Positions 957-59,790 of a stretch of 64,000 nt of DNA are shown here, in pieces. The DNA is from an uncultured Bacteroidota bacterium. GTDB lineage: Bacteria > Bacteroidota > Bacteroidia > AKYH767-A > JABDAW01. The stretch lies in NCBI GenBank assembly GCA_903844645.1, contig CAIMUP010000027.1, forward strand, positions 6,547-70,546, given 5' to 3'. Numbering within the stretch: the stretch's first letter is position 1; each line of letters starts with the position of its first letter. A program made the translations under genes and the position numbers. The notes under the pieces were generated by a model. The model made no database searches and had not been told where the DNA came from. It saw nothing but the letters and a program-made list of their open reading frames with translations.

Positions 957-1020
957 GCAAACTTTCGTATTTATTCGTTGTAAAGAGGTCTAATTCCTGT
1001 TTGGGGAGGAGTAAAACCTG

Positions 1021-1196
1021 TTTGGATTGCTCCTCCCCAAGTTTGGATTGTTCCTCCCCAAGCTTGGATTGCTTCTCCCCAAGCTTGGATTGTTCCTCCC
1101 CAAGCTTGGATTGTTCCTCCCCAAGCTTGGATTGTTCCTCCCCAAGCTTGGATTGCTCCTCCCCAAGCTTGGATTGCTCCATTCCAAGCTTGGAAT
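1021..1196. repeat. Tandem array of 21-bp units (ttggattgttcctccccaagc), about 8 copies; begins with an 11-bp-stem hairpin (ttggggaggag...ctcctccccaa)
   Basis: Direct reading of 1000-1235. It lies between the convergent ends of the lpxL-like gene and the giant T9SS gene. A degenerate copy follows at 1211-1235. Confidence 0.9.
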
Positions 1197-1339
1197 TGTT
1201 TAAAACCAATTGGTTTTGCTCCTCCCCAAACAGGGAATATTCCAAAAGAAAAAGGTTTTGCCATTCATCCCGAAGGGAAAAATGCAAAACCTTTTTGAAT
1301 AAGATGGATGAAATCTTAACGGGGAATGGTATTTAGGAG

Positions 1340-4300
1340 CTATTCCACGACCACCTTCCGCTGCATCACACCGTCCTCATTCTGCATCAAAACAAGGTAC
1401 AGTCCTTTTGGAATTTCAGACAGATTCAATTCAATTTGGTTGTCGCCAACGACGGAAGTATGGTTTTGATTCATCATAATCCTGCCCATCACATCTATCA
1501 AACGGAGGGTGTAGGCTTGCTCTTTATCTGATGAAAAAACGATCGTCAAATGGTCCTTTGCGGGATTGGGATAAATGTTGAATGTCGCTAAACTCGCAAC
1601 ATCGCCCTCCTCCATTCTTGGTGCAGTCGTAAAAGTTTGCGCTGCACTGAAGCCCGAATTAACGGTTCCGCTGGCATTGCAATTGGCTTGAATTTGCCAA
1701 TCGTAAGCCGTATTATGCGTCAGTTGCGAGAAGGTATAATGGGTATTCGGGCTTATCGTGTGGGTACTCCAAATAGTAGCATTGTGCTTGCTGATTCGGA
1801 TGGTATAACCATAGTAACAAGTCGGCTGAATCCAATTAGCCATAGCCGTAGTTGCCGCGATATTGGTGGTCGCATTCACAGGGAATGTCGGGAAATTGCA
1901 AGCCCCTGGAATAAGAGTCGAAGCCATACCGGTGCAGCCATTCACGCTGGTAACGGTTACAGAATAAGAGCCTCCGGTATTAATAATAATGCCTTGGGAG
2001 GTAGCATTGGTATTCCAAAGATAAGCCGCGAAAACGGGGCTTGCCGTAAGCGAGGCATTACCGCCGCCACAAATATTGGCGAGGTTCGCAGAAATAATAT
2101 TGGGGATAGGAGCCGTAAGCACCGTAACCGATTGGTGTGCCGCAGCCGAACAATTCCCGCCATTAGAAACGGTTACATAGTAGATGCCCGTAGCAGAAAT
2201 AGTGATGGATTGAGTCGTTGCACCATTGCTCCAAAGGTATGCGGAATAAGTATTATTAGTTGATAAAGATGAATTGCCACCAGTGCATGTAGTGGTTGCT
2301 CCAACAATCGCCAAGCCTGTAATAGTAGGCGTTACCGTAATATTAATTTGAGCAGCGGCGGCAGTACAACCATGCGCATTGGTAACCGTAACTCGATATG
2401 GATTTGATGCAACAACGGTGATGGATTGGGTGATTGCTCCATTGCTCCAAAGGTACGATGAATAGGCACCGGCATTCAGCAATACAGAGCCTCCCTGGCA
2501 GAATGTAGTAGGACCATTCGGGATGATGGTAGGAATCGGATTCTGGTAAACAGTAACGGTAGTAGAAGCCGATGCCGAACATCCCTGGCCATTAGAAACT
2601 GTAACAGAATAAGTACCGGAAGCGGAAGCATTGATTGTCGCTGTTGAAGCTCCGTCGCTCCAAGAATAAGCCGTTCCACCCGATGCCGTTAAAGCAACGC
2701 TGCCACCAGCACAGAAGGCAGTGGGACCATTAGGAGTAATAATTGCAGTCAGGTTAGAATAGACCGTAACCGACAAGCAGGTAGTTCCTGAACATCCGTT
2801 CACATCCGTAACCGTAACACAGTAGGGCTGTGTACCGAATGCAGTAATAGTTTCAGCAGAAGAACCATCGTTCCATAAGTAGGAAGCATAACTCCCGGCA
2901 TCTAATGAAACCGAACCACCATCGCAGAAAGTAGTAGGACCATTAGGAGCAATGGATGGTGTAGGCAAAGCATTAATAGTAACATAAGTCGAGGCAACAC
3001 CAGTACAACCATTACCATCAGTTACGGTAACTTGTATAGCACCACCCGTCGCAGTTGTGATTAATTGAATAGTTTCAGAAGTACTCCACAAATAGGAAAT
3101 CCATGAACCAGCATCCAAAGAAACGGGTGTTCCTGCACATGTACTTGTAAGCCCCATAATAGTTGGTATTGGATTTGGATTCACAGCAACCGCAATTGAA
3201 GCCGTTCCGGTGCAGGTGTTAGCATTAGTAACTGTAACGATATAAATGCCACCGATTGTAGTAATGATTGTTTGGGTTGTTGCTCCATTGCTCCAAGAAT
3301 AAGAAATAAATGTTCCTGCATCAAGCATAACAGAGCCACCATCACAAAAGGTAGTGGAACCAATTGAGGTAATTACAGGAGTGGGATTTGGATTAATAGA
3401 AACTGTAATTGAAGCAGTACCGGTGCAGGTGTTCGCATCGGTAACAGTAACGCCGCAAATACCACTGCTCGCAACGGTGATTGTTTGAGTCGTTGCCCCA
3501 TTGCTCCAGGAATAAGAAGTAAAAGTACCAGCATCTAAAGTTACATTGCCACCATCACAAAAGGTAGTGTTTCCATTAGATGTAATAATTGGAGTTGGAG
3601 GGTTGGCACAAGGAGTACAATTTAAACTGAAAGATTCCGAAGCATCAATATCTCCACTTACAACAGTCCAATTAGCAGTTGAATACACAATGTCATCTAC
3701 CTGTATGCAAGAAAGATTAGGGTTATGGCTTGCCCAAAAGTGAGCGGTAGTTATGTTGTGATTATGTCCATTTGCAACATTCAAATTGTGAAGGTCATTA
3801 TAAGGACAAAAGAAATAAATTAATTCAGGATTGTGGCTCACGTCTAAGCTACTTATGTTATTATGATTACATTCCAAGACCGTGAGAGCAGTATTGTTGC
3901 TCACATCAAGGCTATTGATGAAATTGTTGGCAGGAGTAAGTTCAATAAGCGAGGTATTGAGACTCACATCTAAACTCGTCAGGTTATTATATGCACACTG
4001 CAAATAGAGAAGTGCCGTATTGTGGCTAACATCTAAATTATTTAGACTGTTGTCATAACATACCAAATCTGTAAGTGCGATGTTATGGCTTAAATCCAAG
4101 CTGCTTAATACGGTATTGTCGTAACAATACAATGTATTAAGCGCAGGGTTATTTGTAACATTTATGCTGGTAAGCAAATCATTCCAACAATATAAATCCG
4201 TAAGGGCTGTACAGTGGCTCACATCCAAGCTACTTAAAGAATTATTGCCAGAGCAATCCAAATACGTGAGTGCTGTGTTGTGACTCATATCTAAACTAAT

Positions 4301-8473: not shown

Positions 8474-8716
8474 GTTATTTATTATTAAAATTGTTTAAAA
8501 GATTCCATATTTATTTGGATTTGGCAAACCTACTAAAACATTCGACACTTCCGCTCGATGCAAAATAGGGTGTCCCCCGATCATCCATCAGCACCTTGTA
8601 ATTTCATTCATTTTTTTTAATTTTAATTGGATTAATATATATTAATTTTACTGTATTCTACTTGAAATCGCAGTGTTTGTAACTCCCTCCATCCCAGAAA
8701 GAGTTATCGCTGGCTT

Positions 8717-8864
8717 GGAAATAGTTATGGCTGCCGTGGAAATAGTTATGGCTGGCGTGGAAATAGTTGTGGCTGCCGTGGAAATAGTTATGGCTGGCGT
8801 GGAAATAGTTATAGCTGGCGTGGAAATAGTTATGGCTGGCGTGGAAATAGTTATCGCCAGCCCA
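8717..8864. repeat. Tandem array of 21-bp units (gaaatagttatggctggcgtg), about 7 copies, in a divergent promoter region
   Basis: Direct reading. It lies between the divergent starts of the 2377-aa gene (8473) and the SBBP gene (9053). The terminal unit carries an inverted variant (gctggc/gccagc). Confidence 0.9.
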
Positions 8865-9009
8865 GACGGAACTCTATTTTTCGGAATTTTATACCCCATC
8901 GCGAACCATTTTGAAGAAGTTTTCCTGCGAACAGGTACCGCCGAAGCTGACCTTGCAGCTTCGGGTAAAAGTAGTACAGTTAATACCAAACCTCTTTCCA
9001 TTCCCCTGC

Positions 9010-9030
9010 CATTTCCTATTTTCGCGGCAT
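9010..9030 (+). promoter_or_regulatory. Candidate Bacteroidota sigma-A -7 element 'TATTTTCG' inside a motif (ttttcgcggc[a/t]ttaataa) that recurs upstream of paaZ
   Basis: 'tattttcgcggcattaataa' sits about 30 bp upstream of the ATG at 9053. The near-identical 'tattttcgcggcttaataa' sits about 30 bp upstream of the ATG at 24112. It resembles the Bacteroidetes TAnnTTTG -7 consensus. Confidence 0.3.
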
Positions 9031-9052
9031 TAATAACATAATAAAAAGTAGT

Positions 9053-10705: not shown

Positions 10706-10744
10706 GCTCGCCTCCCGCAGCGCGAGGCGGTACCTCCCACAATA

Positions 10745-10825
10745 TTTGGCAAAGGAGGCATCTAATATTCCCTCCCAACCACTCCTATTATATAGGCACC
10801 GTTTTGGGGAGGAATGTGAAATAAG
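10745..10825. repeat. Inverted-repeat arm A (~55-bp core ttcctccccaaaacggtgcctatataataggagtggttgggaggg, reverse-complemented here); partner at 23985-24070
   Basis: The reverse complement of 10770-10825 aligns at about 80% with 24000-24060. Confidence 0.75.
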
Positions 10826-10837
10826 TGATTTATAGCG

Positions 10838-11060
10838 TAACCGACTTCTGTTTCGACCTAAACCATGTGCTTTACTACGAAACAGAAGTCTGCTTCGGTC
10901 TAAAGCATGTGGTTTACTGCGAAACAGAAGTCGGCTTCGGTCTAAACCATGTGGTTTACTGCGAAACAGAAGTCGGCTTCGGTCTAAACAACATGGTTTA
11001 CTACGAAACAGAAGTCGGCTTCGGTCTAAACAACGTTGTTTAGACCGAAACAGAACTTCC
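10838..11060. repeat. Tandem array of 42-bp units (gtttactgcgaaacagaagtcggcttcggtctaaaccatgtg), about 5 copies, bounded by inverted partial copies
   Basis: Direct reading. The first partial unit 'gtaaccgacttctgtttcgacctaaacc' and the last 'gtttagaccgaaacagaac' are inverted relative to the internal units. There are no spacers, so it is not a CRISPR array. Confidence 0.9.
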
Positions 11061-11240
11061 TGAACATGCAAAGCACTCGATTTTGATGGAAATTCTTGCC
11101 GATTTTCGCAAAAGTGGCGTTATTTGGAATTTCGGCAAGTTTTCGGATGATTTGAAATAGATGGATTTTCCCCTAAATTCTTGCCGATTTTGAGGAAATC
11201 GTAGGTTTTGATGAAAACGGGAGGAAATCATCCAAAAAAA
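11041..11240. repeat. Inverted-repeat arm B (~190 bp; internal duplication of '...atcggcaagaattt...'); partner at 23440-23620
   Basis: The reverse complement of 11060-11238 aligns at about 85% with 23443-23615. Example: 'atcgtaggttttgatgaaaacgggaggaaatcatcc' against 'ggatgatttcctcccgttttcatcaaaacctacgat'. Confidence 0.85.
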
Positions 11241-11351
11241 TTATATGGGATAAAACCTCCATCGCGTAGCGACTCCAGCATCGCATCCTGAATTAATCAA
11301 AAACCGCTTGCCCCACTTTTTAATACTTTTGCATCCCTAAGAATAACAATT

Positions 11352-14870: not shown

Positions 14871-15138
14871 ATTGTAATACTTCCCTGTGACATTGTAATA
14901 CTTCCCTGTGACATTGTAATACTTCCCTGTGACATTGTAATACTTCCCTGTAACATTGTAATACTTCCCTGTAACATTGTAATACTTCCCTGTCACATTG
15001 TAGTACTTCCCTGTCACATTGTAGTACTTCCCTGTGACATTGTAATACTTCCCTGTGACATTGTAGTACTTCCCTGTGACATTGTAATACTTCCCTGTGA
15101 CATTGTAGTACTTCCCTGTGACATTGTAGTACTTCCCC
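14871..15138. repeat. Tandem array of 21-bp units (cattgtaatacttccctgtga), about 13 copies
   Basis: Direct reading. Intergenic, between the ABC ATPase stop and the next TPR gene. Confidence 0.9.
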
Positions 15139-15277
15139 ATCACTTTAGTAGTTTTCTCTGTTTTTAAACCCTATTTTACGTTGTAAACACCATTATATAA
15201 GAAGTAGAAATCGGAATTCGGAGCCACGAAACCCCCATTTTCAGTGTTTTTATCCGGAATTTTCCTTTCTTTGCCAG

Positions 15278-18099: not shown

Positions 18100-18243
18100 C
18101 AATCGCGTACATGCCGTTACAATTCGCGTACATTGACTCGGAATTAGCGTACATGCCGTTAGAATTAGCGTACATTGACTCGGAATTAGCGTACATTTCA
18201 TGACATAAACACGTGTTTTTGTCATGAAATGTACGCTAATTTT
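18100..18243. repeat. Tandem 21/42-bp array (gcgtacatgccgttacaattc / gcgtacattgactcggaatta) ending in a ~58-bp near-perfect palindrome
   Basis: The palindrome 'aattagcgtacatttcatgacataaacacg|tgtttttgtcatgaaatgtacgctaatt' spans 18185-18242. It lies between the DUF922 start and the nnr stop. Confidence 0.9.
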
Positions 18244-23351: not shown

Positions 23352-23439
23352 ATGTACGATTATTATGGGTAATGATACTATCGAAAATTTTATTCTTTAC
23401 TAAATCTTTCATTCCCCGCGGCTTTTATCCCGAATATTT

Positions 23440-23620
23440 TTTTAGGATGATTTCCTCCCGTTTTCATCAAAACCTACGATTTCCTTAAAATCGGCAAGAA
23501 TTTCGGGGGAAATTCATCTCCTTTAAATCATCCAAAAACAGGTCAGAATTCCAAATAACGCCACTTTTCCGAAATCCGGCAAGAATTTAGGGTAAAATCG
23601 AAGTGGTTTGCGTTTCATTC
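23440..23620. repeat. Inverted-repeat arm B' (partner of 11041-11240)
   Basis: See arm B. It carries the internal duplication 'aatcggcaagaatttcgggg / atccggcaagaatttaggg'. Confidence 0.85.
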
Positions 23621-23632: not shown

Positions 23633-23828
23633 GTATATATCACATGATATATAGCAATCGGGAGTTCGCCATCGCAATATATCATATGATATATTGCGAT
23701 CCCGAGCATAATAAAAGTGCATATCATATGATATATTGCAATCCCGAGCATAATGAAAGTGCATATCACATGATATATTGCAATCCCGAGCATAATGAAA
23801 GTGCATATCATATGATATATTGCGATCC
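23633..23828. repeat. Tandem array of 42-bp units (atatcatatgatatattgcaatcccgagcataatgaaagtgc), about 4.5 copies; each unit holds the palindrome atatcatatgatatat
   Basis: Direct reading. The first unit is partly inverted (gcaatcgggag against ctcccgat...). Confidence 0.9.
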
Positions 23829-23984
23829 CTAACTCCCGAACGTAGTAAACCATCTGATTTTGCCTTTTGGGGAATTCCGGAAATGTGCATACCATTTCGT
23901 TTAGACCGATGCCGACGAGCAGATTTTTGCATCTCATCTGATTTTTCCCAATCCCGACGAGTGGGTTTTGATAAATTTTCAAGT

Positions 23985-24070
23985 TTATTCCATTCCCCGA
24001 AAAGATACCTATATAATAGGAGTGGTTGGGAGGGAAATCGGGATGGCGGTGGCGCGGAATGGTATCATCC
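23985..24070. repeat. Inverted-repeat arm A' (partner of 10745-10825); overlaps the putative paaZ promoter
   Basis: 'gatacctatataataggagtggttgggaggg' against the reverse complement of the left arm, 'ggtgcctatataataggagtggttgggaggg'. Confidence 0.75.
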
Positions 24071-27850: not shown

Positions 27851-28069
27851 TGCATGTAATCTCGCTTTTGTCGCGAGTAAAATTGCTTTTATTGCATGTA
27901 ATATCCTTTTTGTTGGATGTAATTTCATTCCCGCTGCATGAAACGTCATTCCGGTTGCATGAAATGTCATTCCGTCTGCATGTAATCTCCTTTTTGTTGC
28001 ATGTAATTTCATTCCCGTTGCATGAAATTTCATTCCCGTTGAGTGAAATTTCATTTTTCACTCAACGGG
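27851..28069. repeat. Tandem array of 21-bp units (tgcatgtaatttcattcccgt), about 10 copies, ending in a 13-bp-stem hairpin (ccgttgagtgaaa...tttcactcaacgg)
   Basis: Direct reading. The hairpin at 28034-28069 lies about 60 bp upstream of the ATG at 28131. Confidence 0.9.
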
Positions 28070-33754: not shown

Positions 33755-33819
33755 GGCAATGTTGCCATTTAATCAAACTATCCTTTATAACAATAACGCT
33801 GTTCAGGCATTGAATAACG

Positions 33820-34138
33820 TAAGTCGGGGACTGACTTACATCATTCAATCCCCGAACAACGAAGTTCGGGGACTGAATGATGTACTTCGGGGACTGAATG
33901 ATGTACTTCGGGGACAGAATGATGTACTTCGGGGACTGAATGATGTAAATCGGGGACAGAATGATGTACTTCGGGGACTGAATGATGTAAATCGGGGACT
34001 GAATGATGTACTTCGGGGACCGAATGATGTACTTCGGGGACTGAATGATGTACTTCGGGGACTGAATGATGTACTTCGGAGACCGAATGATGTACTTCGG
34101 GGACTGAATGATGTACTTCGGGGACCGAATGATGTAAT
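33820..34138. repeat. Tandem array of 21-bp units (ggactgaatgatgtacttcgg), about 13 copies, preceded by two short hairpins (gtaagtc-ggggact-gacttac; ccccgaac-aacgaa-gttcgggg)
   Basis: Direct reading. It fills the gap between the 1589-aa gene stop and the next T9SS gene start. Confidence 0.9.
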
Positions 34139-34252
34139 CCTTACACACAAATGCCCATTCCTTATATACAATAGCGAAGTCCGGGTATATGACAGGGATG
34201 TTATCTTGGAAAATCTTAAATAAATTATAGTAACGAATAAAAATTAAAGACA

Positions 34253-37392: not shown

Positions 37393-37517
37393 GCAAAACT
37401 ATAAAAAAGCCCGCATGTATGAGATTTCTTGGTCTAATAAAATTTCCTTCTCCAAGGATTCTACACTTAGAAACCCGCCGAATCCTTGAAAAACCCAATT
37501 TTGCCCCCCCTCACTCC

Positions 37518-37783
37518 CAACTTTGGTCGTCTCGGGTTTAACTTTAGCCTCCACGGGTTTGACTTTGGTCGTCTCGGGTTTAACTTTAGCCTCCACGGGT
37601 TTGACTTTGGTTGTCTCGGGTTTAACTTTAGCCCCCAAGTCTCCAACTTTAGCCCCCTCGGGTTTGACTTTAACGCCCACGAGTCCAACTTTAGCCCCCT
37701 CCGGTCCGACTTTAAGACCCACTGGTTTAACTTTAATCGCCTCCATTTTAACTTTACTCCCCCTGCCTCCAACTTTAATATTC
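37518..37783. repeat. Tandem array of two interleaved 21-bp units (gactttggtcgtctcgggttt / aactttagcctccacgggttt), about 12 copies
   Basis: Direct reading. Lies upstream of the DUF2971 gene start. Confidence 0.9.
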
Positions 37784-37810
37784 TCAAGTCAGATAAATAT
37801 TGGCAAGTAA

Positions 37811-38085
37811 ATTCCACAACACTCATGTAAATCTGGAACACTCATGTAAATTCCACAACACTCATGTAAAACCCAAGAACACTCATGTAAGCATCAAGAA
37901 CAGTCATGTAACTACCAACAACACTCATGTAAGCACCAACAACACTCATGTAAAACCCAAGAACACTCGTGTAACTCCCAACAACACTCATGTAAGTACC
38001 AAGAACATTCGTGTAACTACCAAGAACACTCATGTAAGCACTAAGAACACTCATGTAATTACCAAAAACACTCGTTACAAAACCC
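37811..38085. repeat. Tandem array of 21-bp units (aacactcatgtaaaacccaag), about 13 copies; only about 25 bp from the preceding array
   Basis: Direct reading. Two unrelated arrays sit back-to-back between the DUF2971 gene and the fadD-like gene. Confidence 0.9.
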
Positions 38086-44766: not shown

Positions 44767-45018
44767 TAGTATTTGCATGTCAGAACCACTATTTACTGGT
44801 CAGCATCAAATATTTGGTAGGCAGCATTAAGTATTTACTGGTCAGCATCGTATATTTGGTTGGCAGGAACAAGTATTTAGTAGGCAGCAACGAGTATTTG
44901 AAGGTCAGCCTCAAGTATTGACAGGTCAGCATCGTCTATTTGAAGGTTAGCACCAAGTATTTGGTAGGCAGCATCAAGTATTTAGTCGTCAGCACCATGT
45001 ATTTGAATGTCAGCACCA
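44767..45018. repeat. Tandem array of 21-bp units (agtatttggtaggcagcatca), about 12 copies
   Basis: Direct reading. Lies between the start of the 43678..44706 gene and the stop of the FAH-family gene. Confidence 0.9.
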
Positions 45019-45025
45019 ACAAAAA

Positions 45026-45637
45026 CTATTTCACCTCCACCTTCAGCAATTCTTTCCCCTCAATAAAAGCGGTAAGCACATCCCCGATCTTCACAGCACC
45101 AACACCCACAGGAGTTCCGGTAAATATCAAATCGCCCTTCTTCAAAGTAAAATAAGAAGAAACATGAGCAATAATATCATCAATAGAATGCAACATAAGT
45201 CCGGTATTCCCCTGCTGAACCGTCTTGCCATTAATATCCAAATGAAAGTTGATATTGCGAAGATTCTCGAAATTACTTTTGCTCTGAAACTTCCCGATAG
45301 GCGCCGACCCATCGAAGCCTTTCGCCTTCTCCCACGGCAATCCGTCGGTCTTGCATTTGTTTTGAATATCACGAGCAGTGAAGTCAATTCCTATCCCGAT
45401 CTCTTCGTAATACTTGTAAGCAAATTGCTTAGCAATATTCTTTCCGGTCTGCGAAATCTTATAAACAATCTCTACCTCGTGATGAATGTTTTTGGAGAAT
45501 TCAGGATAATAAAAAGGATTATTATTAATAATAATAGCCGAGTCAGGCTTCATAAAAATCACAGGCTCATCCGGAATAGGAGAGTTCATTTCCTTGGCAT
45601 GTTCAGCGTAGTTTCTACCTATAGCAACTATTTTCAT
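45026..45637 (-). CDS. Fumarylacetoacetate hydrolase (FAH)-family protein
   Basis: 'MKIVAIGRNYAEHAKEMNSPIPDEPVIFMKP...' and 'GTPVGVG' are typical of the short FAH/HpcE-type hydratase-isomerase family. Confidence 0.8.
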   Translation of the reverse strand: MKIVAIGRNYAEHAKEMNSPIPDEPVIFMKPDSAIIINNNPFYYPEFSKNIHHEVEIVYKISQTGKNIAKQFAYKYYEEIGIGIDFTARDIQNKCKTDGLPWEKAKGFDGSAPIGKFQSKSNFENLRNINFHLDINGKTVQQGNTGLMLHSIDDIIAHVSSYFTLKKGDLIFTGTPVGVGAVKIGDVLTAFIEGKELLKVEVK

Positions 45638-48085: not shown

Positions 48086-48115
48086 AGATAAAAATTAAAA
48101 AGATAAATGCTTTTT

Positions 48116-51571: not shown

Positions 51572-51588
51572 TCACCAAAATCTTATTC

Positions 51589-52227: not shown

Positions 52228-52332
52228 TTTCTTAAATTTTAATTGTTAATTTATGGTTATTACTATTTATTTTATTACTAATTCACTGATAATGAAGATC
52301 ATAAAATGTCTTTTACCTATCTCATCCATCTT

Positions 52333-52538
52333 GTTATTTGGTAAATAACAACTGTTATTTACCAAATAACAACTGTTTTCTGCCAAATAACAACTGTTAT
52401 TTTCCAAGAAACAACTGTTATTTTTCCGGCAACAGTTGTTATTTTCCAAAAAACGACTGTTATTTTTCAGCCAACAGTTGTTATTTTCTAAGAAACAACT
52501 GTTATTTTAGAGATAACACCTGTTGTTTTCCAAAAAAC
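52333..52538. repeat. Tandem array of 21-bp units (ccaaataacaactgttatttt), about 9 copies; each unit holds the palindrome aacaactgtt, and some copies are inverted
   Basis: Direct reading. Lies upstream of the 51589..52227 gene start. Confidence 0.9.
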
Positions 52539-52745
52539 AATCCCTCCAAACCCGTCTCTCTTTTTTCCAACCTGTTAAAGAACCTCTACTTTTTTCTGTG
52601 GGATTTTTTACCCTCCTTCTCTTCGTATAATTTTTCTTCGGAAGGGCAGTAGAAAGATTGTCATTTCAATTTCCTACTCAACTCTGAAAGTTATCGGCGG
52701 CAAATATAGAAAAGTTTTCGGGAATGGAATGGGAGAGGGAAAGAT

Positions 52746-53711: not shown

Positions 53712-53777
53712 AACCGCCCCTCCATTGCTGAAGGGGCGGTAAGTTTTAAGAAATTAGATTTCTAATTCCTATTGGAA

Positions 53778-56700
53778 TTACTGAACCATAATCTTAGTTT
53801 GTAATGTCTGTCCACCTGTTTCGAGGCTTAAGAAATATACACCCTTAACGATGTTTGCAGTATTTAATTCAACTTGGTTATCGCCGATTGCAGAAGCATT
53901 CACTTGGCTCATGATAACTCTTCCTGTAAGATCTACTAAACGCAAGGTATAGTTGTCAGATGTTTGAGAATTGAAGACAACAGTAGCATGGTCAGTAGCT
54001 GGATTTGGATAAACATTGAAAGCAGAGATTGTTTCGATGTCGCCATCAGCCATTCTTGCAGCAGTGAATAATTGTGGAGCACTTGGACCTGAATTCGTTG
54101 TTGTGCTACAGTTAGTTTGGATAGTCCATGAATAGTTATGTCCATGAGTTAAACCAGAGAACGTGTAGTGAGAATTCGGTGCGAAAGTGAAAGTAGCAAC
54201 TGCCAATGTGTTCAAGTCTGTACGAACGATTGTATAACCAGAAACGCATGAAGGCTGATTCCAAGAAACATAAGCAGAGTTCGTAGTGATGCTTGAAGTA
54301 GCCATGTTAGTAGGCAATACGCAATCAACACTTAAATTAACACATGCAACTCCTGAACAACCGTTAGTGCTTGTAATTGTTACACAATACAATCCTGGAT
54401 GACCTGGAGTAATTGTGATAGAAGCTAAAGTAGCACCTGTGCTCCAGTTGTAAGCATAACCAGCTTGAGCAGCTAAAGTTACGTTACCTGTGTTAGCGCA
54501 ATACGTAGCAAGACCGGTTGTGGTAATGTTAGTATTAACACCTGTTAACACCTGTACAGAGTGAGTAGCTGTTCCTGTGCAACCACAAGCATTGGTAACG
54601 GTTACTGTGTAACCAGCAGAACCAGAAGCAATAGTAGTTGTTTGAGTAGTAGCGCCATTGCTCCATAAATAAGCAGCATAGCCAGCACCAGCATTAATGG
54701 TTACAGGACCACAATTTGCGAAAGAAGGAGAAGCTGTCATTGTAACAACTGGTCTTGGGCAGAAACTGGTAGTAGTGTAAGAAGCTGTACCGCTACATCC
54801 ATTTGCATTAGTTACAGAAACAGTGTATGTTCCTGCAGCAGTAATGTTAATGTTTTGAGTAGTAGCACCAGTGCTCCATAAGTAAGTAGCGAAACCAGAG
54901 TTAGCACTTAATACCATTGAAGAGGCAGTACAAGGAGCAGGAACTGGACCAGCAGTGATTATTGGAGTTACGAAATCGGTTACTGTAACAGTAGCACAAA
55001 CAGTACCTGTACAACCATTGGAATAAGAAACGGTTACGCAATAAGTTCCTGAAGTGGTTATAGTAGTTCCATAATCTGCAACTGTAGAGCCATTACTCCA
55101 AATATAAGAAGTATAATGTGGATTGTAAATAACATTTAAGTTAACAGAACCACCTTGACAGAAAGTCAAAGGACCATTTGAAGTAATATTTGGAACAGGT
55201 GCCACACCAACAGTAATTGAATGGTGAGCAGTACCTGTACAACCTGCAGCATTAGAAACAGTTACTATGTAATTTCCTGTATTAGTAACAGTGATAGATT
55301 GGGTTGTTGCACCAGTACTCCATAAATAACCTGCATAAACACCAGTAGTTAAAATAGAAGAACCACCTTGACAGTCATAAACAGCACCAGAGATGGTAGG
55401 AATTGGATTCTGACTAACTGTAACAGATTTGCAAGCAGTTCCTGTACATCCGTTACCATCAGTAACAGTTACACAATAGGTACCAGCAGCAGTAACTGTA
55501 ATAGAAGAAGAATGAGAACCATTGCTCCATGTATAAGAAGCCCAAGTACCAGCATTTAATGTTCCTGAACCAGGAGCACAAATTTGAGATGGACCAGAGA
55601 TAGTTGGAGTTGGAGCAGAATTAATCGCTACTGATTGACAAGCTACACCTGTACATCCGTTACCATCGGTTACAGTTACACAATAGTTTCCTGAAGTAGT
55701 AACAGTTGCAGAAGCATTAGTTCCACCATTGCTCCATGAATAAGAAGCATAAGTTCCAGTGCTTAAAGTAATAGAACCACCGCAAGAACTGGAAGGACCA
55801 GAAACAGCAGGAGTTGGAGCAGAATGAACGCTTACTTGTTGACAAGCAACACCTGTACAACCATGAATATTTGCAACAGTTACACAATAGTTACCACTAG
55901 ATGTAACAGTAATAGAACCATTAGTTCCACCATTGCTCCATGAATAAGAAGCCGCTGTTCCTGTACTTAATGTTAAAGAACCAGAGCATGAACTTGTAGG
56001 TCCAGAGATACTTGGTTGAGGATTATCATAAATTGTAACGCCTACACATGTAGAACCTGAACAACCATGACCATCAGTTACAGTAACACAATTTTGTCCT
56101 GTAGAACATGCTGAAATAGTTTGGTTAGTTCCTCCATTTGACCAGTTGTAACCAGCATAAGAACCAGCGTCTAAAGTTACGCAAGAACCAGCACAAGCAG
56201 TAGTAGCACCAGAGATAGAAGGAGTTGGGTTATCATAAATTGTTACATCAACACAAGTAGAACCTGAACAACCGTTACCATCAGTTACAGTTACACAATT
56301 TTGTCCTGTAGAACAAGCTGTAATAGATTGGTTTGTTCCTCCATTTGACCAGTTGTAACCAGCATAAGAACCAGCATCTAAAGTTACGCAAGAACCTGCA
56401 CAAGCACTAGTAGCACCAGATATAGAAGGAGTTGGATTATCATAAATTGTAACATCTGTACAAGCAGTTCCCATACATCCATTACCATCAGTAACCATTA
56501 CACAATAGTTACCTGATGAACATACAGTAGTATTTTCGGAATTATCTCCTGTTGTCCAAGCGTAATCAGCCCAAGAACCTGCATCTAAAGTTACGCAAGA
56601 ACCAGAACAAGCAGTAGTAGTACCAGAAATAGAAGGAGTTGGATTGTCATAGATAGTTACCCACTGACAAGCTGAACCCATACAACCGTTACCATCAACT

Positions 56701-58520
56701 ACAGTAACACAATAGTTATCTGAAGAACAAGCAGAAGTTGTTGGTGTCATATCTCCATTGCTCCAAGAATAACCATCCCAAGAACCTGCATCTAAAGTAA
56801 CACAAGAACCTGCACAAGCAGAAGTATTTCCAGAGATTGAAGGAGTTGGATTTGCATTAAAAGAAACAAATTGGCTAGCTGAACCCATACAACCATTTCC
56901 ATCAGTAACAGTTACTATTTCGGTAGCAGCACCACTTGTAAAGGTATAACTTTCATCTGTTGAAAAATAACCTGTAATACTATTATACCAAGAATAACTT
57001 GCCCAAGAACCAGCATCCAAAGTTACTGTATTACCATCACATACTGTTGTAGGTCCATTAGATGTAATAACTGGAACTGGATTAGTATTAACTGTTACAT
57101 CCATACAATCTTCACCTGTACATCCATTAGGATCTGTAATAACTACACAATATGTTCCTGAAGTAGTAGCTGTAACAGTTTCGTCTGTTCCGCCATTATA
57201 ATTCCAAGAATAATTATCCCATGTTCCGCCATCTAAAACAACTGAACCTCCATCGCAGAAAGTAGTGTTACCACCAGCTGTGATATGTGGATGAGGTGTT
57301 GGATTAACAGTTACATCTTGACAAGCAACGCCTGTACAACCATTATCATCAGTTACTGTACAGCAGAATGTTCCGCCATTGTCTAAAGTAATCATTTCAG
57401 CTGATGAACCGTTGCTCCAGCTATAAGAAGCATAAGTTCCTGCATCTAAAGTTACATTTCCTCCATTACAGAATACTGGAGGTGAGCTATAAGTAAGTGT
57501 AGGTGTTGGAGAATCATGAACCACTACATCAATACAACCTACGCAAGTACATCCACCTGCATCAGTAACAGTACAGCAATAAGAACCTGCAGTTACAGCA
57601 GTAAGAGTTTGAGAATGTGAACCATTGCTCCAGGTATAAGCTGCCCAAGAACCAGCATCTAAAGTTACATTACCGCCTGAACAGAATGATAAATTACCAG
57701 AAGCGGTGATTGAACAAGAAATGTTGTTGTTTCCACCTGTTACATCATGGCAAGCAGCGGCTGTACAGCCCCAGAAAGAAGTAGCAGTTACGCAATAAGT
57801 GCCTGCTGATGTTACATCAATACTTGGTGTGTTTGCGCTGTTGCTCCAAGAATAAGCATTAACTCCCCAGCTACCATTAGCAGTAAGGGTTGCATGTCCG
57901 CCTCCGCAATTCAAATTGCCTGTTTGGCTGATTGAAACTGATGGATTTGGCAATACAATAATAAAACGATACGCGACGCCTGTACATCCCCAAACATTGG
58001 TTACTGTACAAGAATACCAACCGATGTTGGTAGCCGATGTGGTTTGTGTGGTAGCACCGTTGCTCCACATGTAAGAAGAATACCCTGCGCCTGCATCCAA
58101 ATTCATGTGACCTGCGCACCAGTTAAATGGTCCGCCGATGTGAATGACTGGATGTGGACGTGGATGAACCGTTACGTGAATCGAAGCTACACCTGTGCAG
58201 CCGTTCGAAGCAGTAACCGTTACATGGTACGTGCCGGTGAAAAACGCATTAATACTTTGCGTGTTTGCACCTGTGTTCCAATGATAATGGGAATAATTCC
58301 CTGTGCTTAAATGCACATGTCCACCAGCACAAATGGTCGTCGGACCATTCGCTGTAATGGTTGGAGGTACCGGAATAGTACATTCCGAATTCACCGAAAT
58401 TTCGGTGTTGATAGAAGGTGTCCCATTTCCTTCTGTAGTCGGGGTTTTTGCAGACAGGTTAGTGCCGAATAAGGCAAGAACCAAGCAAAGGATGACTGGT
58501 AAAAGTTTTAATTTGTTCAT
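53778..58520 (-). CDS. Giant T9SS-secreted adhesin-like protein (1580 aa): about 18 Cys-containing Ig-like repeats, FN3-like domain, Por_Secre_tail
   Basis: Signal peptide. Repeats of '...TxCxGxxVTLDAGS.A.Y.WSNG...TIT...G.YCVTVTDGNGC.G..C..VT....P.P' including near-identical copies. C-terminal 'ISAFNVYPNPATDHATVVF...KGVYFLSLETGGQTLQTKIMVQ'. Confidence 0.85.
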   Translation of the reverse strand: MNKLKLLPVILCLVLALFGTNLSAKTPTTEGNGTPSINTEISVNSECTIPVPPTITANGPTTICAGGHVHLSTGNYSHYHWNTGANTQSINAFFTGTYHVTVTASNGCTGVASIHVTVHPRPHPVIHIGGPFNWCAGHMNLDAGAGYSSYMWSNGATTQTTSATNIGWYSCTVTNVWGCTGVAYRFIIVLPNPSVSISQTGNLNCGGGHATLTANGSWGVNAYSWSNSANTPSIDVTSAGTYCVTATSFWGCTAAACHDVTGGNNNISCSITASGNLSFCSGGNVTLDAGSWAAYTWSNGSHSQTLTAVTAGSYCCTVTDAGGCTCVGCIDVVVHDSPTPTLTYSSPPVFCNGGNVTLDAGTYASYSWSNGSSAEMITLDNGGTFCCTVTDDNGCTGVACQDVTVNPTPHPHITAGGNTTFCDGGSVVLDGGTWDNYSWNYNGGTDETVTATTSGTYCVVITDPNGCTGEDCMDVTVNTNPVPVITSNGPTTVCDGNTVTLDAGSWASYSWYNSITGYFSTDESYTFTSGAATEIVTVTDGNGCMGSASQFVSFNANPTPSISGNTSACAGSCVTLDAGSWDGYSWSNGDMTPTTSACSSDNYCVTVVDGNGCMGSACQWVTIYDNPTPSISGTTTACSGSCVTLDAGSWADYAWTTGDNSENTTVCSSGNYCVMVTDGNGCMGTACTDVTIYDNPTPSISGATSACAGSCVTLDAGSYAGYNWSNGGTNQSITACSTGQNCVTVTDGNGCSGSTCVDVTIYDNPTPSISGATTACAGSCVTLDAGSYAGYNWSNGGTNQTISACSTGQNCVTVTDGHGCSGSTCVGVTIYDNPQPSISGPTSSCSGSLTLSTGTAASYSWSNGGTNGSITVTSSGNYCVTVANIHGCTGVACQQVSVHSAPTPAVSGPSSSCGGSITLSTGTYASYSWSNGGTNASATVTTSGNYCVTVTDGNGCTGVACQSVAINSAPTPTISGPSQICAPGSGTLNAGTWASYTWSNGSHSSSITVTAAGTYCVTVTDGNGCTGTACKSVTVSQNPIPTISGAVYDCQGGSSILTTGVYAGYLWSTGATTQSITVTNTGNYIVTVSNAAGCTGTAHHSITVGVAPVPNITSNGPLTFCQGGSVNLNVIYNPHYTSYIWSNGSTVADYGTTITTSGTYCVTVSYSNGCTGTVCATVTVTDFVTPIITAGPVPAPCTASSMVLSANSGFATYLWSTGATTQNINITAAGTYTVSVTNANGCSGTASYTTTSFCPRPVVTMTASPSFANCGPVTINAGAGYAAYLWSNGATTQTTTIASGSAGYTVTVTNACGCTGTATHSVQVLTGVNTNITTTGLATYCANTGNVTLAAQAGYAYNWSTGATLASITITPGHPGLYCVTITSTNGCSGVACVNLSVDCVLPTNMATSSITTNSAYVSWNQPSCVSGYTIVRTDLNTLAVATFTFAPNSHYTFSGLTHGHNYSWTIQTNCSTTTNSGPSAPQLFTAARMADGDIETISAFNVYPNPATDHATVVFNSQTSDNYTLRLVDLTGRVIMSQVNASAIGDNQVELNTANIVKGVYFLSLETGGQTLQTKIMVQ
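56020..56460. repeat. Near-identical 213-bp (71-codon) tandem duplication inside the 1580-aa gene
   Basis: 'atcataaattgt[a/t]ac...agatagaaggagttgg' occurs twice in succession with only a few substitutions. Lower-identity copies extend to about 56900. Confidence 0.8.
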
Positions 58521-58619
58521 TGATAATTTATTTAATTAATTTATTTTTTTTGCTTACTCTATTAGGTTTTCGGCATCCCCTTTTTTAATTATTTATTTAA
58601 GTTCTCTATAATTTTAATT

Positions 58620-59282
58620 TTATGAAATAATCCCCAAATACCGTGTCGCGGCTTTCCCTAACTTCTTATCCCCTGTCAAATACCGAGTATAACTTACGAA
58701 GCTCATGCCCAAATTTTCCGCATCATATACTATAACATCTTTCCCACTATTAATAACATCGGTTTGGGTACACTGTTTTTCGGTCGGAATCGGTCCGCCC
58801 AACAAATAAAACCCTGTTTTAATCCGAAAACTCGCCTGCCCTACCGGTTTTTTCCTCGGCGTAAATTTATATTTTCCGACCAAGGTAGCCTTATTTGTAT
58901 ATCCCACGGCTGGTGCTACTTCGCTTGCCACCGATTTCGTCTTCGATTTCGGGGCGTTCGGAACACCGATTTCGGTACGGTTTTCATCAGGAATCAAGGT
59001 ATTATTCTTCACCTCCTCCTTCGTGATTTTCCGGATATACGCTATCAATGCCACCCTCGCCGTTTCGGTATTGTCATAATCAATCTGTCTCGCCGTCGCA
59101 GTAAGCTTCGAGATAGCATAATATGCTGCATAAGTGGTATGAAGCCCTTGCAAAATCGTATTCTTACCAGTCGTAATGTGCCATGCCGAAATATTGGCAC
59201 CGATTTCCGAACAAAAAGTCGTCTGAAACGTGTCAAACGCCTCCACTGCAATAGGTATCCAATCTTTATTTCCGCCTGCCAT
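58620..59282 (-). CDS. Hypothetical protein
   Basis: 220-aa ORF with no recognisable motifs. Confidence 0.45.
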   Translation of the reverse strand: MAGGNKDWIPIAVEAFDTFQTTFCSEIGANISAWHITTGKNTILQGLHTTYAAYYAISKLTATARQIDYDNTETARVALIAYIRKITKEEVKNNTLIPDENRTEIGVPNAPKSKTKSVASEVAPAVGYTNKATLVGKYKFTPRKKPVGQASFRIKTGFYLLGGPIPTEKQCTQTDVINSGKDVIVYDAENLGMSFVSYTRYLTGDKKLGKAATRYLGIIS

Positions 59283-59317
59283 AATCTATTTTATTGACTA
59301 ATTTTATACGTAATAAG

Positions 59318-59478
59318 GTACAATGTTGCCAACATTGTACTTCTTTTCATTAACATCGTTCCACCTTTCATTGACATCGTTCCTTTTGTCATTAACATCG
59401 TTCCACTTGTCAATAACATCGTCCTAAATTCCATTAACTTCGTCCTACTTTTCATTAACTTCGTTCCACAATTTAATA
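59318..59478. repeat. Tandem array of 21-bp units (cattaacatcgttccacttgt), about 7 copies, beginning with an 11-bp-arm palindrome (gtacaatgttg c caacattgtac)
   Basis: Direct reading. Lies upstream of the 58620..59282 gene start. Confidence 0.9.
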
Positions 59479-59790
59479 CCATCGCCAAGCCCCCTTTGGT
59501 AAGGGATTCTATCGTTGAGGCATTAAAATTTAAGGTCATCATGTATGTTTTGTAAGGCGTTATTTTGTTATTTAGCGGCTGCAAAGATAAGGAATGGAAT
59601 CATACCATCCAAATTTTTCTTCATATTTAATGATAATTTATTCTTGGAAACCATAAAATACAACTTGAAATAAGTAAAAAAGCAACCGACAACCTTCCGT
59701 TGCCGATTGCTAATTTTTAATTCGCTATTGCTTCTCGTGGAATTCGTCATCAAAAAATGCGCTCTATATATAAGGAGTGTTTTGACGGAA

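What the first reader, a model, noticed from the sequence alone, without database searches (positions are those of the whole stretch)
1000..59480. Thirteen intergenic tandem arrays with a strict 21/42-bp period, each with a different unit sequence
Almost every intergenic gap longer than about 250 bp in this window holds an array of 5-14 direct repeats. The arrays sit at 1021, 8717, 10838, 14871, 18100, 23633, 27851, 33820, 37518, 37811, 44767, 52333 and 59318.

The period is 21 bp, or 42 bp made of two 21-mers, which is two helical turns. So every copy faces the same side of the DNA helix. The unit sequences are unrelated from one locus to the next. These are therefore not copies of one mobile element. 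They look more like one process or one class of DNA-binding machinery acting at many loci.

Many units contain short palindromes (aacaactgtt, atatcatatgatatat, aaaccatgtggttt). None of the arrays has spacers, so they are not CRISPR arrays. They are not plausibly coding: each is 150-300 bp, intergenic, and the ORF-track 'heptad' peptides run on both strands.

Several arrays flank T9SS cargo genes. Possible roles: phased protein-binding platforms (nucleoid or silencing), slipped-strand copy-number (phase) variation that tunes adjacent promoters, or structured RNAs. P. gingivalis 'BrickBuilt' arrays look loosely similar, but the 21-bp quantisation and the diversity of units here are distinctive.
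Basis: seen in the sequence. Interest (0 to 1): 0.85.

Follow-up and report, generated by a model that had tools for sequence, protein, structure and literature searches.

The report
Intergenic 21-bp-period minisatellite arrays
Every long gap between genes in this uncultured Bacteroidota genome holds a non-coding tandem repeat whose sequence differs from gap to gap and changes fast, yet whose unit length is always 21 bp or a multiple of it (two turns of the DNA helix); I found no description of this pattern, and what causes it is unresolved.

Summary
Tandem Repeats Finder finds 13 arrays of period 21 or 42 bp at the stated sites. All 12 intergenic gaps over 250 bp hold one; no gap under 200 bp does. 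The arrays make up 5% of the window and 40% of its intergenic DNA. Five arrays (2, 3, 8, 11, 13) are reproduced with 0-1 mismatches in independent assemblies.

The arrays are not CRISPR, not coding and not a known or generally structured RNA. Their units share no consensus.

- Arrays 3 and 6 are two copies of one dispersed leader-array-tail element, like BrickBuilt of P. gingivalis.
- The class is wider than this genome. In 2.2 Mb of related and control loci, 36 of 46 sizeable arrays have period 21n and none has 19, 20, 22, 23, 41 or 43.
- Near-identical strains differ by one clean 42-bp unit. One orthologous array is 53% diverged between flanks that are 92-97% identical.
- About a third of arrays are capped by an inverted unit that forms a long hairpin.

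Best reading: hypervariable minisatellites that evolve by whole-unit slippage and concerted evolution, with the register locked at two helical turns. The constraint itself, whether helical phasing, a dedicated machine or simple inheritance, is inferred and not shown.

The parts
985..1290 (.). Array 1. Unit TTGGATTGCTCCTCCCCAAGC, 8 homogeneous copies plus degenerate copies to about 1290. The two left-most units (985-1026) are inverted copies and form a 14-bp-stem hairpin at 1001-1040. Lies between two convergent 3' ends.
8697..8864 (.). Array 2. Unit GAAATAGTTATGGCTGGCGTG, 8 copies, in a divergent promoter gap. A Bacteroidota -7 box at 8525 (- strand) lies between the array and the gene start at 8473.
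   Evidence: Gene coordinates in one other assembly imply a copy of this array that is 21 bp shorter.
10837..11067 (-). Array 3. 42-bp unit, about 5 copies. It is the interior of a leader-array-tail element that is inverted relative to array 6.
14871..15143 (.). Array 4. Unit ATTGTAATACTTCCCTGTGAC, 13 copies, 96% matches.
   Evidence: Other assemblies break or carry Ns here.
18105..18241 (.). Array 5. 21/42-bp units starting GCGTACAT, about 4.4 copies, plus a capping hairpin at 18184-18241 (26 paired positions, z = -11.4). One arm of the hairpin is an inverted unit.
23637..23960 (+). Array 6. 42-bp unit ATATCATATGATATATTGCAATCCCGAGCATAATGAAAGTGC (core 23679-23829), followed by older degenerate units that still resemble the units of array 3.
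23423..23611 (+). Leader of the dispersed element, with its second copy at 11068-11255 on the minus strand. 189 bp, 86% identical, with an internal direct repeat about 85 bp apart (CGGCAAGAATTT occurs twice in each copy).
23987..24036 (+). Tail of the dispersed element, with its second copy at 10768-10815 on the minus strand. It ends in TATAATAGGAGTGGTTGGGAGGGAA, which is identical in both copies.
27851..28069 (.). Array 7. Unit TGCATGAAATTTCATTCCCGT, about 10 copies with 84-bp higher order. Capped at the distal edge by a perfect 14-bp-stem hairpin at 28035-28069.
33802..34200 (.). Array 8. Unit TTCGGGGACTGAATGATGTAC, 13 copies (core 33865-34136). Degenerate and different units continue in the same register on both sides. 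An inverted unit at the left edge forms a 20-bp-stem hairpin at 33837-33884.
37496..37785 (.). Array 9. 21/42-bp unit CCAACTTTGGTCGTCTCGGGT / TTAACTTTAGCCCCCACGGGT, about 13 units.
37807..38079 (.). Array 10. Unit GTAAATACCAAGAACACTCAT, 12.9 copies. It abuts the stop codon of gene 38111-39907. The first three units are 19-20 bp long.
44769..45020 (.). Array 11. Unit TATTTAGTGGTCAGCATCAAG, 11 degenerate copies. It starts 5 bp after the stop of gene 45026-45637. No reading frame is open over 80% or more of the array.
52332..52541 (.). Array 12. Palindromic unit TGTTATTTGCCAAATAACAAC, 10 copies.
59343..59489 (.). Array 13. Unit CTTTTCATTAACATCGTTCCA, 6-7 copies.

Best explanation
The arrays are a clade-wide class of non-coding, hypervariable intergenic minisatellites in uncultured Bacteroidota.

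Shown:
- They change length by gain or loss of whole units.
- Each locus homogenises its own unit (concerted evolution). Orthologous arrays therefore keep their place and their 21-bp register while the unit sequence turns over far faster than the flanks.
- At least one family spreads or duplicates as a leader-array-tail element.
- In the sampled loci of the window's clade, every gap of 480 bp or more between real genes carries an array.

Inferred:
- The register is actively constrained to 21n bp, which is an integral number of pairs of helical turns at 10.5 bp per turn. Unit sequence is free, but periods of 19, 20, 22, 23, 41 and 43 never appear.
- The most likely reason is that only 21n arrays keep every unit, and the DNA on either side, in the same rotational phase. 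This could act as a phased, sequence-independent structural or protein-binding spacer between transcription units. It could also act as a tolerance filter that lets only phase-neutral expansions survive.
- Growth is by replication slippage or unequal recombination, possibly seeded or stalled at the inverted-unit hairpins that cap about a third of the arrays.
For: - Period and location.
- Non-coding: a mean of 2.8 of 6 frames open over 80% or more of an array, against my rough estimate of about 3.8 expected by chance, and none for array 11. Variation between copies shows a 3-bp bias only in arrays 1 and 4, partly in 8, of 13 arrays. In an orthologous pair, mismatches fall 36/36/38 over the three codon positions.
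- No shared unit motif. No general excess of folding. No Rfam match to any array.
- Whole-unit length change: L152 and L153 are 96.8% identical overall and differ by one clean 42-bp unit in an otherwise near-identical array. Gene coordinates in another assembly put array 2 at 21 bp shorter.
- Fast turnover with the register kept: the L152/L153 array at about 4850-5040 has the same length but 53% mismatches, beside a flank 92% identical and an overall 96.9% identity. L005 and L007 are 80-86% identical in flanking genes and both hold a 21-bp array after rlmH, with different units.
- Presence and absence differ among relatives at 76-88% protein identity.
- Dispersed element with leader and tail.
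- Sharp period spectrum: 36 of 46 arrays of at least 80 bp in 2.2 Mb have period 21n. The rest have periods 7-15, 24, 51 and 108. None has 19, 20, 22, 23, 41 or 43.
- Array-bearing loci cluster on the tree of the neighbouring AMP-binding protein.
- Long gaps: all 12 in the window. My count from the gene tables and TRF rows gives 9 of 9 in L148, L152 and L153, treating ORFs called on the arrays as non-genes; one of the nine is a weak 3.3-copy array cut off by the locus end.
Against: - Units carry no internal 10.5-bp periodicity of A/T or any single base. The classic signature of curvature or wrapping is therefore absent.
- Indels inside arrays are rare but not dramatically rarer than a neutral ratio would give. 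My rough estimate is that about 5% of units are not 21 bp long (for example the first units of array 10, and L095). Within one clade, simple inheritance of the period is hard to exclude.
- Arrays occur in convergent, divergent and co-directional gaps alike, with no consistent position relative to promoters. That fits junk as well as function.
- L077 carries an intergenic 24-bp-period array, so the rule is not universal.
- Arrays 2, 3, 8, 11 and 13 are invariant where independent assemblies of one population span them.
- No protein, transcript or phenotype is linked to any array.
Confidence: 0.5

Rival explanations
1. Pure inheritance with no constraint or function. All arrays descend from one ancestral element carrying a 21-bp array. 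They spread as MITE-like leader-array-tail units, lost their flanks and drifted in sequence. The period is a frozen accident, because slippage copies the existing register.
For: Arrays 3 and 6 share a leader and tail yet have already diverged units. Newly amplified units sit beside older degenerate ones in array 6. Arrays sit in any kind of gap. Presence and absence vary among relatives. Homogeneity ranges from 96% to 69% matches, like a birth-to-decay life cycle.
Against: Only 2 of 13 arrays share flanks, and the leader and tail are absent from relatives. Units are randomised relative to each other, which implies many rounds of turnover. Even so, no array of 19, 20, 22, 23, 41 or 43 bp exists among 46 arrays in several deeply separated lineages. 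Units that are not 21 bp long do exist and could have been amplified.
Confidence: 0.25
2. A dedicated machine creates the period. This could be an integrase, transposase or nuclease that cuts with a 21-bp stagger, in the way repeat duplication happens at CRISPR spacer integration or target-site duplication happens at transposition. It could also be a filament-forming DNA-binding protein that sets the slippage step. Either would generate 21-bp duplications of whatever local sequence it meets.
For: Unit sequences are local and arbitrary while the length is fixed. The trait follows lineages. L040 2880-2921 is a perfect 21-bp duplication of unique sequence covering a start codon, which could be a birth event.
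Against: Isolated single 21-bp duplications are not clearly enriched over other lengths in 316 kb of array-bearing loci (21 bp: 2; 17 bp: 2; 18, 19 and 20 bp: 1 each). No transposase, integrase or cas gene was seen among the 30 window proteins scanned. As far as I recall, no insertion-sequence family makes a fixed 21-bp target duplication.
Confidence: 0.12
3. The arrays encode heptad-repeat (7-amino-acid) small proteins or repeat-containing peptide precursors.
For: 21 bp equals 7 codons. Gene callers place ORFs of 97-154 aa on the arrays. In arrays 1 and 4, variation between copies is mostly synonymous in one frame (10 of 11 changes in frame VTGKYYN, 6 of 8 in SKLGEEQ).
Against: There are fewer open frames than I estimate by chance, and no frame is open over 80% or more of array 11. 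There is no 3-bp bias in 10 of 13 arrays or in the orthologous L152/L153 pair, where mismatches fall 36/36/38. Units show no period-3 harmonic. Intergenic periods of 18, 24, 27 or 30 bp, which are equally in frame, are absent from this clade.
Confidence: 0.04
4. The arrays are transcribed and act as RNA: tandem hairpins, sRNA or guide precursors, protein sponges, or terminator or stabiliser modules in 3' untranslated regions.
For: Some units are strong palindromes (array 12 z = -3.5, array 3 z = -2.1). Hairpin caps lie 16-85 bp after the stop codons of the upstream genes in arrays 1, 5 and 8. Arrays 10 and 11 start 5-30 bp after a stop codon, so they are probably part of a transcript. Possible -7 boxes lie upstream of arrays 7, 12 and 13 on the strand of the downstream gene.
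Against: There is no general excess of folding (mean z = -0.33). No Rfam family matches an array. No T-run follows the hairpins (my reading of the sequence). An RNA role does not explain an exact 21n period.
Confidence: 0.07
5. The arrays are assembly artefacts or collapsed repeats.
For: Contigs of other assemblies end in arrays 3, 4, 8 and 13 or carry N gaps in array 4.
Against: Five arrays are reproduced with 0-1 mismatches in independent assemblies from different samples and assemblers. The same class is present in many unrelated MAGs and metagenomes.
Confidence: 0.02

Closest known systems
BrickBuilt MITE minisatellite of Porphyromonas gingivalis, and the related MITEPgRS/464 element with 41-nt repeats (PMC4596501)
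   Same: Both are from Bacteroidota. Both are spacer-less tandem direct repeats of about 20 nt, always intergenic, with imperfect copies that have conserved and variable positions. Some copies have a non-repetitive leader and tail; 11 of 19 BrickBuilt copies have both. Annotation pipelines call spurious ORFs on them. The window element in gaps 3 and 6 has the same leader-array-tail layout.
   Different: BrickBuilt has one 23-nt unit shared by all 19 copies, IS5-like terminal inverted repeats, and makes up 0.44% of the genome. Here the period is 21/42 bp and the units are unrelated between loci. Only 2 of 13 arrays share flanks, and no convincing terminal inverted repeats or target-site duplications were found. 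The arrays are 5% of the window. The class also spans several lineages instead of one species.
Bacterial VNTR/minisatellite loci, such as MLVA markers and mycobacterial MIRUs (from my own knowledge)
   Same: Head-to-tail units of 10-100 bp. Length changes by whole units between strains. Many such loci are intergenic.
   Different: Known VNTR sets in a genome have many different periods. Here a single quantum of 21 bp governs dozens of unrelated loci, and arrays occupy essentially every long intergenic gap.
Plasmid iterons and centromere arrays, such as the R6K 22-bp iterons and F sopC 12 x 43 bp (from my own knowledge)
   Same: Contiguous direct repeats with a period of about two or four helical turns, so that bound proteins line up on one face. 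Some units contain an inverted repeat.
   Different: Iterons and centromere arrays are one locus per replicon, lie next to rep or par genes, and have a unit recognised by one cognate protein. Here there are 13 unrelated units in 64 kb of chromosome, with no rep or par gene among the 30 proteins scanned.
AraC-family operator sites, which are direct repeats with 21-bp periodicity, including in Bacteroides (PMC3870299)
   Same: The same 21-bp centre-to-centre spacing of direct repeats. This is an established case where two helical turns is the natural step for a DNA-binding protein.
   Different: Operators have two half-sites next to a regulated promoter. The arrays have 5-14 copies and also occur between convergent 3' ends.
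CRISPR arrays
   Same: Short direct repeats, intergenic, some of them palindromic.
   Different: There are no spacers at all, and no cas genes among the proteins scanned. The repeat sequence differs at every locus.
Heptanucleotide intergenic direct repeats of cyanobacteria and Beggiatoaceae (STRR, TAACTGA; PMC4679880)
   Same: Abundant intergenic direct repeats that are a hallmark of a lineage. Per the paper's title, a regulatory role is proposed but unproven.
   Different: Those repeats have a 7-bp unit with one conserved sequence. The 21-bp units here have no 7-bp sub-period (harmonic 3).

Membership tests
CRISPR array | Repeats separated by unique spacers of similar length | tested here: not met
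   Units are contiguous. TRF copies are head to tail with 0-3% indels.
CRISPR array | Same repeat sequence throughout an array family, with cas genes nearby | tested here: not met
   Units are unrelated between loci. No Cas family passed its curated cut-off among the 30 proteins scanned; the only Cas-named match, cas14_MBL_CASP at 64.6 bits against a cut-off of 800, is a beta-CASP nuclease domain match. Not every ORF was scanned.
BrickBuilt-type MITE with internal minisatellite | Spacer-less tandem repeats of about 20-23 nt, strictly intergenic | tested here: met
   definition from PMC4596501
BrickBuilt-type MITE with internal minisatellite | Conserved non-repetitive leader and tail flanking the repeats in multiple genomic copies | tested here: inconclusive
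   Met for arrays 3 and 6 (189-bp leader at 86% identity, 50-bp tail). Not met for the other 11 arrays within this 64-kb window. The rest of the genome could not be searched.
BrickBuilt-type MITE with internal minisatellite | One repeat-unit sequence shared by all copies | tested here: not met
   No common consensus. Even arrays 3 and 6 have diverged units.
BrickBuilt-type MITE with internal minisatellite | Terminal inverted repeats matching a resident IS family, and target-site duplications | tested here: inconclusive
   By my reading of the ends shown, there is only a weak inverted match of about 10 nt (ATTTCCTCCC against GGGAGGGAAAT). No target-site duplication was seen, and there is no IS in the window to compare with.
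VNTR / minisatellite | Head-to-tail units of 10-100 bp | tested here: met
VNTR / minisatellite | Copy number differs between strains by whole units | tested here: met
   A clean 42-bp indel between L152 and L153. A 21-bp difference in array 2 is inferred from gene coordinates. Arrays 2, 3, 8, 11 and 13 are invariant in the assemblies that span them.
Iteron / partition-site array | Direct repeats in helical phase next to a cognate rep or par gene, one locus per replicon | tested here: not met
   The period fits. However, there are 13 unrelated arrays, and no Rep, ParA or ParB among the scanned proteins.
Protein-coding heptad repeats | An open frame with a start codon across the array, and substitutions biased to third codon positions | tested here: not met
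Described structured RNA family (Rfam) | Match to a covariance model, or folding energy beyond shuffled controls | tested here: not met
   Only DUF805b at 58551-58583, which lies outside any array, passes its gathering score. Mean folding z-score is -0.33.
AraC-type operator | Two direct half-sites 21 bp apart, upstream of a regulated promoter, with a cognate regulator | not testable with these tools
   The period matches. The copy number of 5-14 and the placement between convergent 3' ends argue against it. No regulator was identified.

The most novel reading that the evidence does not exclude
A clade of uncultured Bacteroidota has a sequence-independent but phase-dependent system acting on intergenic DNA. 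It would be either a protein machine that makes 21-bp duplications, or a nucleoid or chromatin-like protein that requires arrays repeating exactly every two helical turns. Under this reading, 21-bp-phased arrays are actively created or maintained between transcription units while their sequence evolves freely, much as fast-evolving satellite DNA in eukaryotes keeps a conserved structural role.
Probability: 0.22. Interest if true: 0.85.

Novelty: new variant of a known kind. Interest (0 to 1): 0.62.

Why it matters
If the 21-bp lock is real, it would be one of the few bacterial cases where the physical phase of DNA, and not its sequence, is the conserved property of an abundant genomic element. 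That would make questions about nucleoid organisation, insulation of transcription units and minisatellite dynamics directly testable in a bacterium.

There are practical consequences as well:
- The arrays take up about 5% of the DNA.
- They break short-read assemblies of these MAGs.
- Gene callers annotate them as hypothetical proteins of 97-154 aa.
- They offer ready-made strain-typing loci for an uncultured lineage.

Tried and rejected
- Coding (heptad peptides): rejected on open-frame counts, codon-position tests and harmonics.
- Common unit motif: rejected by Gibbs alignment over all rotations and both strands.
- Hairpin or structured RNA as a class property: rejected.
- Internal 10.5-bp A/T phasing in units: not found.
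- Units as copies of other window sequence, such as antisense targets: none found beyond chance, except the link between arrays 3 and 6.
- Units as promoters: the Bacteroidota -7 box TAnnTTTG is almost absent from the arrays, with 1 hit. The sigma-70 and terminator scan was uninformative.
- Leader and tail in viral contigs: no hits. In relatives' loci: none.
- A 21-bp-specific birth process: isolated single duplications are too few and not enriched.
- Taxonomy below phylum: not obtainable. The closest representative genome has only 59% identity for the selenophosphate-synthetase-like protein at 16364-17410. A relative at 79% identity is labelled only 'Bacteroidota bacterium', and the cluster look-up returned no organism names.
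- Literature: seven full-text searches found no description of a class of 21-bp-period arrays.
- Association with T9SS cargo genes: 7 of 26 flanking gene ends against 18% expected (my count), which is not significant.

Full report
**Observation.** Tandem Repeats Finder reports 13 arrays of period 21 or 42 bp (some also 63 or 84 bp as higher order) at 985-1229, 8697-8854, 10858-11055, 14871-15137, 18105-18197, 23679-23829, 27851-28058, 33865-34136, 37517-37722, 37807-38073, 44790-45019, 52332-52540 and 59343-59469. Laid out in rows of 21, the units stay in perfect register. Degenerate copies continue beyond the TRF limits. All arrays lie between long ORFs. Pooled intergenic DNA matches itself 44-47% at lags 21, 42 and 84 and 42% at lag 63, against 24-29% at other lags from 4 to 89, whereas genic DNA shows only the codon ripple. 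All 12 gaps longer than 250 bp peak at lag 21 or 42, and none of the five tested gaps of 137-198 bp does. The arrays total about 3.2 kb, which is 5% of the window and 40% of its intergenic DNA.

**Are the arrays real?** Arrays 2, 3, 8, 11 and 13 are reproduced with 0-1 mismatch and the same length in independent assemblies from other samples. The most homogeneous arrays end contigs or carry N gaps in other assemblies. They are therefore real, but the copy numbers of arrays 1, 4 and 8 are the least secure.

**Organism.** The window carries T9SS C-terminal sorting domains, a PorE-like protein and housekeeping genes. Bacteroidota-type -7 boxes (TAnnTTTG) lie 17-52 nt upstream of many start codons. 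The closest species representative has only 59% identity for the selenophosphate-synthetase-like protein at 16364-17410. A relative at 79% identity is labelled only 'Bacteroidota bacterium'. This is an uncultured lineage known from metagenomes.

**What the arrays are not.**
- *CRISPR:* there are no spacers.
- *Coding:* on average 2.8 of 6 frames stay open over 80% or more of an array, below my rough estimate of about 3.8 for 41% G+C, and array 11 has none. Variation between copies shows a 3-bp bias only in arrays 1 and 4, and partly in 8. Units have no period-3 harmonic. In an orthologous pair, 110 mismatches fall 36/36/38 over the three codon positions. Gene callers nevertheless place 97-154-aa ORFs on the arrays, and these should be treated as spurious.
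- *A known or generally structured RNA:* Rfam matches nothing in the arrays. Folding of 126-nt concatemers gives a mean z-score of -0.33 over 26 units, with about five clearly palindromic units and the rest at or above shuffled energy.
- *One sequence family:* the best joint alignment of 31 units over all rotations and both strands carries 7.22 bits, against 7.35 +/- 0.17 for shuffled units.

A search for unit-like sequence elsewhere in the window linked array 3 to the flank of array 6. The two gaps, in opposite orientation, share a 189-bp leader at 86% identity (23423-23611 and 11255-11068). They also share a 50-bp tail ending in the identical 25-mer TATAATAGGAGTGGTTGGGAGGGAA. Between leader and tail, both hold 42-bp arrays. 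The older, degenerate units of array 6 still resemble the units of array 3, whereas a newer variant unit has been amplified 4-5 times next to them. This is the leader-repeat-tail layout of BrickBuilt in P. gingivalis (PMC4596501). I found no convincing terminal inverted repeats or target-site duplication. No other array in the window shares flanks. The leader and tail are absent from relatives' loci and from viral contigs.

**The class extends beyond this genome.** I used 59 loci around homologues of that protein as a control sample. Unexpectedly, 21 bp was the commonest period there too, with multi-copy arrays in L005, L007 (two) and L040. Metagenome and exact-protein look-ups of closer relatives gave more 21/42-bp arrays, at 76-88% identity for two flanking proteins: L062 (three arrays in 10 kb), L063, L065, L148, L152 and L153. 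Over the whole 2.2-Mb sample, 36 of 46 arrays of at least 80 bp with at least 3.5 copies have period 21n. The others have periods 7-15, 24, 51 or 108, and none has 19, 20, 22, 23, 41 or 43. Array-bearing loci cluster on the tree of the neighbouring AMP-binding protein, while a large sister group has none. In L148, L152 and L153, by my count from the gene tables and TRF rows, all 9 gaps of 480 bp or more between real genes contain an array, treating the ORFs called on the arrays as non-genes; one of the nine is a weak 3.3-copy array cut off by the locus end. One exception exists outside the window's clade: L077 has an intergenic 24-bp-period array.

**Dynamics.** L152 and L153 are 96.8% identical over 16 kb, and three gaps tell three stories:
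- One array is identical in both except for a clean 42-bp unit. This is classical VNTR change.
- One array of about 9 units has the same length in both but is 53% mismatched, beside a flank 92% identical and an overall 96.9% identity. The units remain recognisably related, and by my reading they differ by a +1 and a -1 indel that together restore 21 bp. That is a single case and depends on how the units are aligned.
- The gap after the FAA-hydrolase gene is replaced outright, 1.7 kb against 0.4 kb, and each version has its own 42-bp array.

L005 and L007 are 80-86% identical in flanking genes. Both have a 21-bp array directly after rlmH. The sequence between the conserved flanks cannot be aligned, and the units differ. 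In the window's own population, one assembly has gene coordinates implying that array 2 is 21 bp shorter. Arrays 2, 3, 8, 11 and 13 are invariant wherever assemblies span them. Position and register therefore persist, sequence turns over quickly, and length changes by whole units.

**An unexplained structural feature.** Arrays 1, 5, 7 and 8 are capped at one edge by an inverted copy of the unit. This creates stems of 14-26 bp with z-scores of -3.7 to -11.4. Similar caps occur in L153 (both edges), L065 and L005. Nine of 27 arrays have an inverted match of at least 12 of 14 bases within 70 bp of the array, against 1.1% when arrays are paired with the flanks of other arrays. Part of this is trivial where the unit itself is palindromic. 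In arrays 1, 5 and 8 the cap lies 16-85 bp after the stop codon of the upstream gene, but no T-run follows it. Strand-switching during replication, or seeding of arrays at pre-existing hairpins, are both possible. I could not decide between them.

**Why 21?**
- *Coding* would also allow 18, 24, 27 or 30 bp, which are absent from this clade.
- *Unconstrained slippage* would allow any length.
- *Exact rotational coherence* over ten or more units at 10.5 bp per turn allows only 21n, which is what is seen.
- *Inheritance* from one ancestral array also gives 21n. Given that units are randomised between loci and lineages, some drift to 20 or 22 would then be expected, and odd-length units do exist (the first units of array 10, and L095).

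Against the helical reading, units show no internal 10.5-bp signal, and I have no evidence of binding or curvature. Against a dedicated 21-bp duplication machine, isolated single 21-bp duplications are not enriched. The one clean candidate birth event is L040 2880-2921, a perfect 21-bp duplication across a start codon.

**Verdict on mechanism.** I rank a DNA-level phase constraint on otherwise ordinary minisatellite dynamics first, at about 0.5. Pure inheritance follows at about 0.25, a dedicated machine at about 0.12, RNA roles at about 0.07, coding at about 0.04 and artefact at about 0.02.

**Comparison with known systems, and novelty.** The closest known system is BrickBuilt/MITEPgRS. It differs in having a single 23- or 41-nt unit, IS5-like ends, restriction to P. 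gingivalis and its close relative P. gulae, and 0.44% of the genome. Iterons, sopC-type centromeres and AraC operators (PMC3870299) show that two helical turns is a natural step for DNA-binding proteins, but the arrays fail their membership tests. Seven full-text searches found no description of a clade-wide class of arrays with a 21-bp quantum and unrelated units. I classify it as a new variant of a known kind (minisatellite/VNTR, partly MITE-borne). It is moderately to highly interesting because of the unexplained period lock and the near-saturation of long intergenic gaps.

Noticed in passing
window 58551-58583 (- strand): Rfam DUF805b cis-regulatory RNA motif (42.4 bits against a gathering score of 35.6), in the 99-bp gap upstream of the 1580-aa gene 53778-58520. 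It is the only Rfam hit above threshold in the window.
   Followed up: no
window 16364-17410 and 22851-23351: A selenophosphate-synthetase-like AIRS protein and an OS_HP2 family (seleno)protein-like ORF lie 5 kb apart. In-frame UGA recoding may be used in this organism, so ORF limits near 22851-23351 may be wrong.
   Followed up: no
window 3171-3569, 7691-7869, 55441-56912: The giant T9SS cargo genes contain in-frame repeats of 204-213 bp (about 70 aa) and 63 bp. These are ordinary coding repeats and not part of the 21-bp class.
   Followed up: partly
window 1001-1040, 18184-18241, 28035-28069, 33837-33884; L153 4829-4865 and 5018-5039; L065 3627-3665: Inverted copies of the repeat unit cap one edge of about a third of the arrays and form hairpins with 14-26-bp stems. 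Their origin and role are unexplained.
   Followed up: partly
L040 2880-2921: A perfect tandem duplication of exactly 21 bp (TTAAATTATGGAACTACCTAC x2) covers the start codon of an 874-aa ORF at 2908-5532, which I guess is valS-like. It may be a newborn array in an array-bearing lineage.
   Followed up: partly
L152 10659-12397 vs L153 10662-11064: Two genomes 96.8% identical have entirely different DNA between the FAA-hydrolase gene and mfd: 1.7 kb with two ORFs lacking any Pfam hit and a small 42-bp array, against 0.4 kb with a 6-copy 42-bp array. This is a replacement hot spot.
   Followed up: partly
L077 8823-8989, 9885-9990, 11854-12085: Repeats of 25/51-bp period bracket two overlapping small ORFs at 9084-9714, which I guess to be a PIN-type toxin-antitoxin pair. 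A 24-bp-period intergenic array (95% matches) follows the AMP-binding gene. These are exceptions to the 21n rule in a more distant lineage.
   Followed up: partly
window 23492-23503 / 23577-23588 and 11175-11186 / 11090-11101: The leader of the element in gaps 3 and 6 contains an internal direct repeat about 85 bp apart (CGGCAAGAATTT plus context). At roughly 4 x 21 bp, the leader may itself be an old degenerate array.
   Followed up: partly
L005 (CAVXOV010000026.1): This contig is labelled 'uncultured Candidatus Saccharibacteria' but is syntenic with, and 80-86% identical to, a 'Bacteroidetes bacterium' MAG contig (L007). It is probably a mis-binned or mislabelled record.
   Followed up: no
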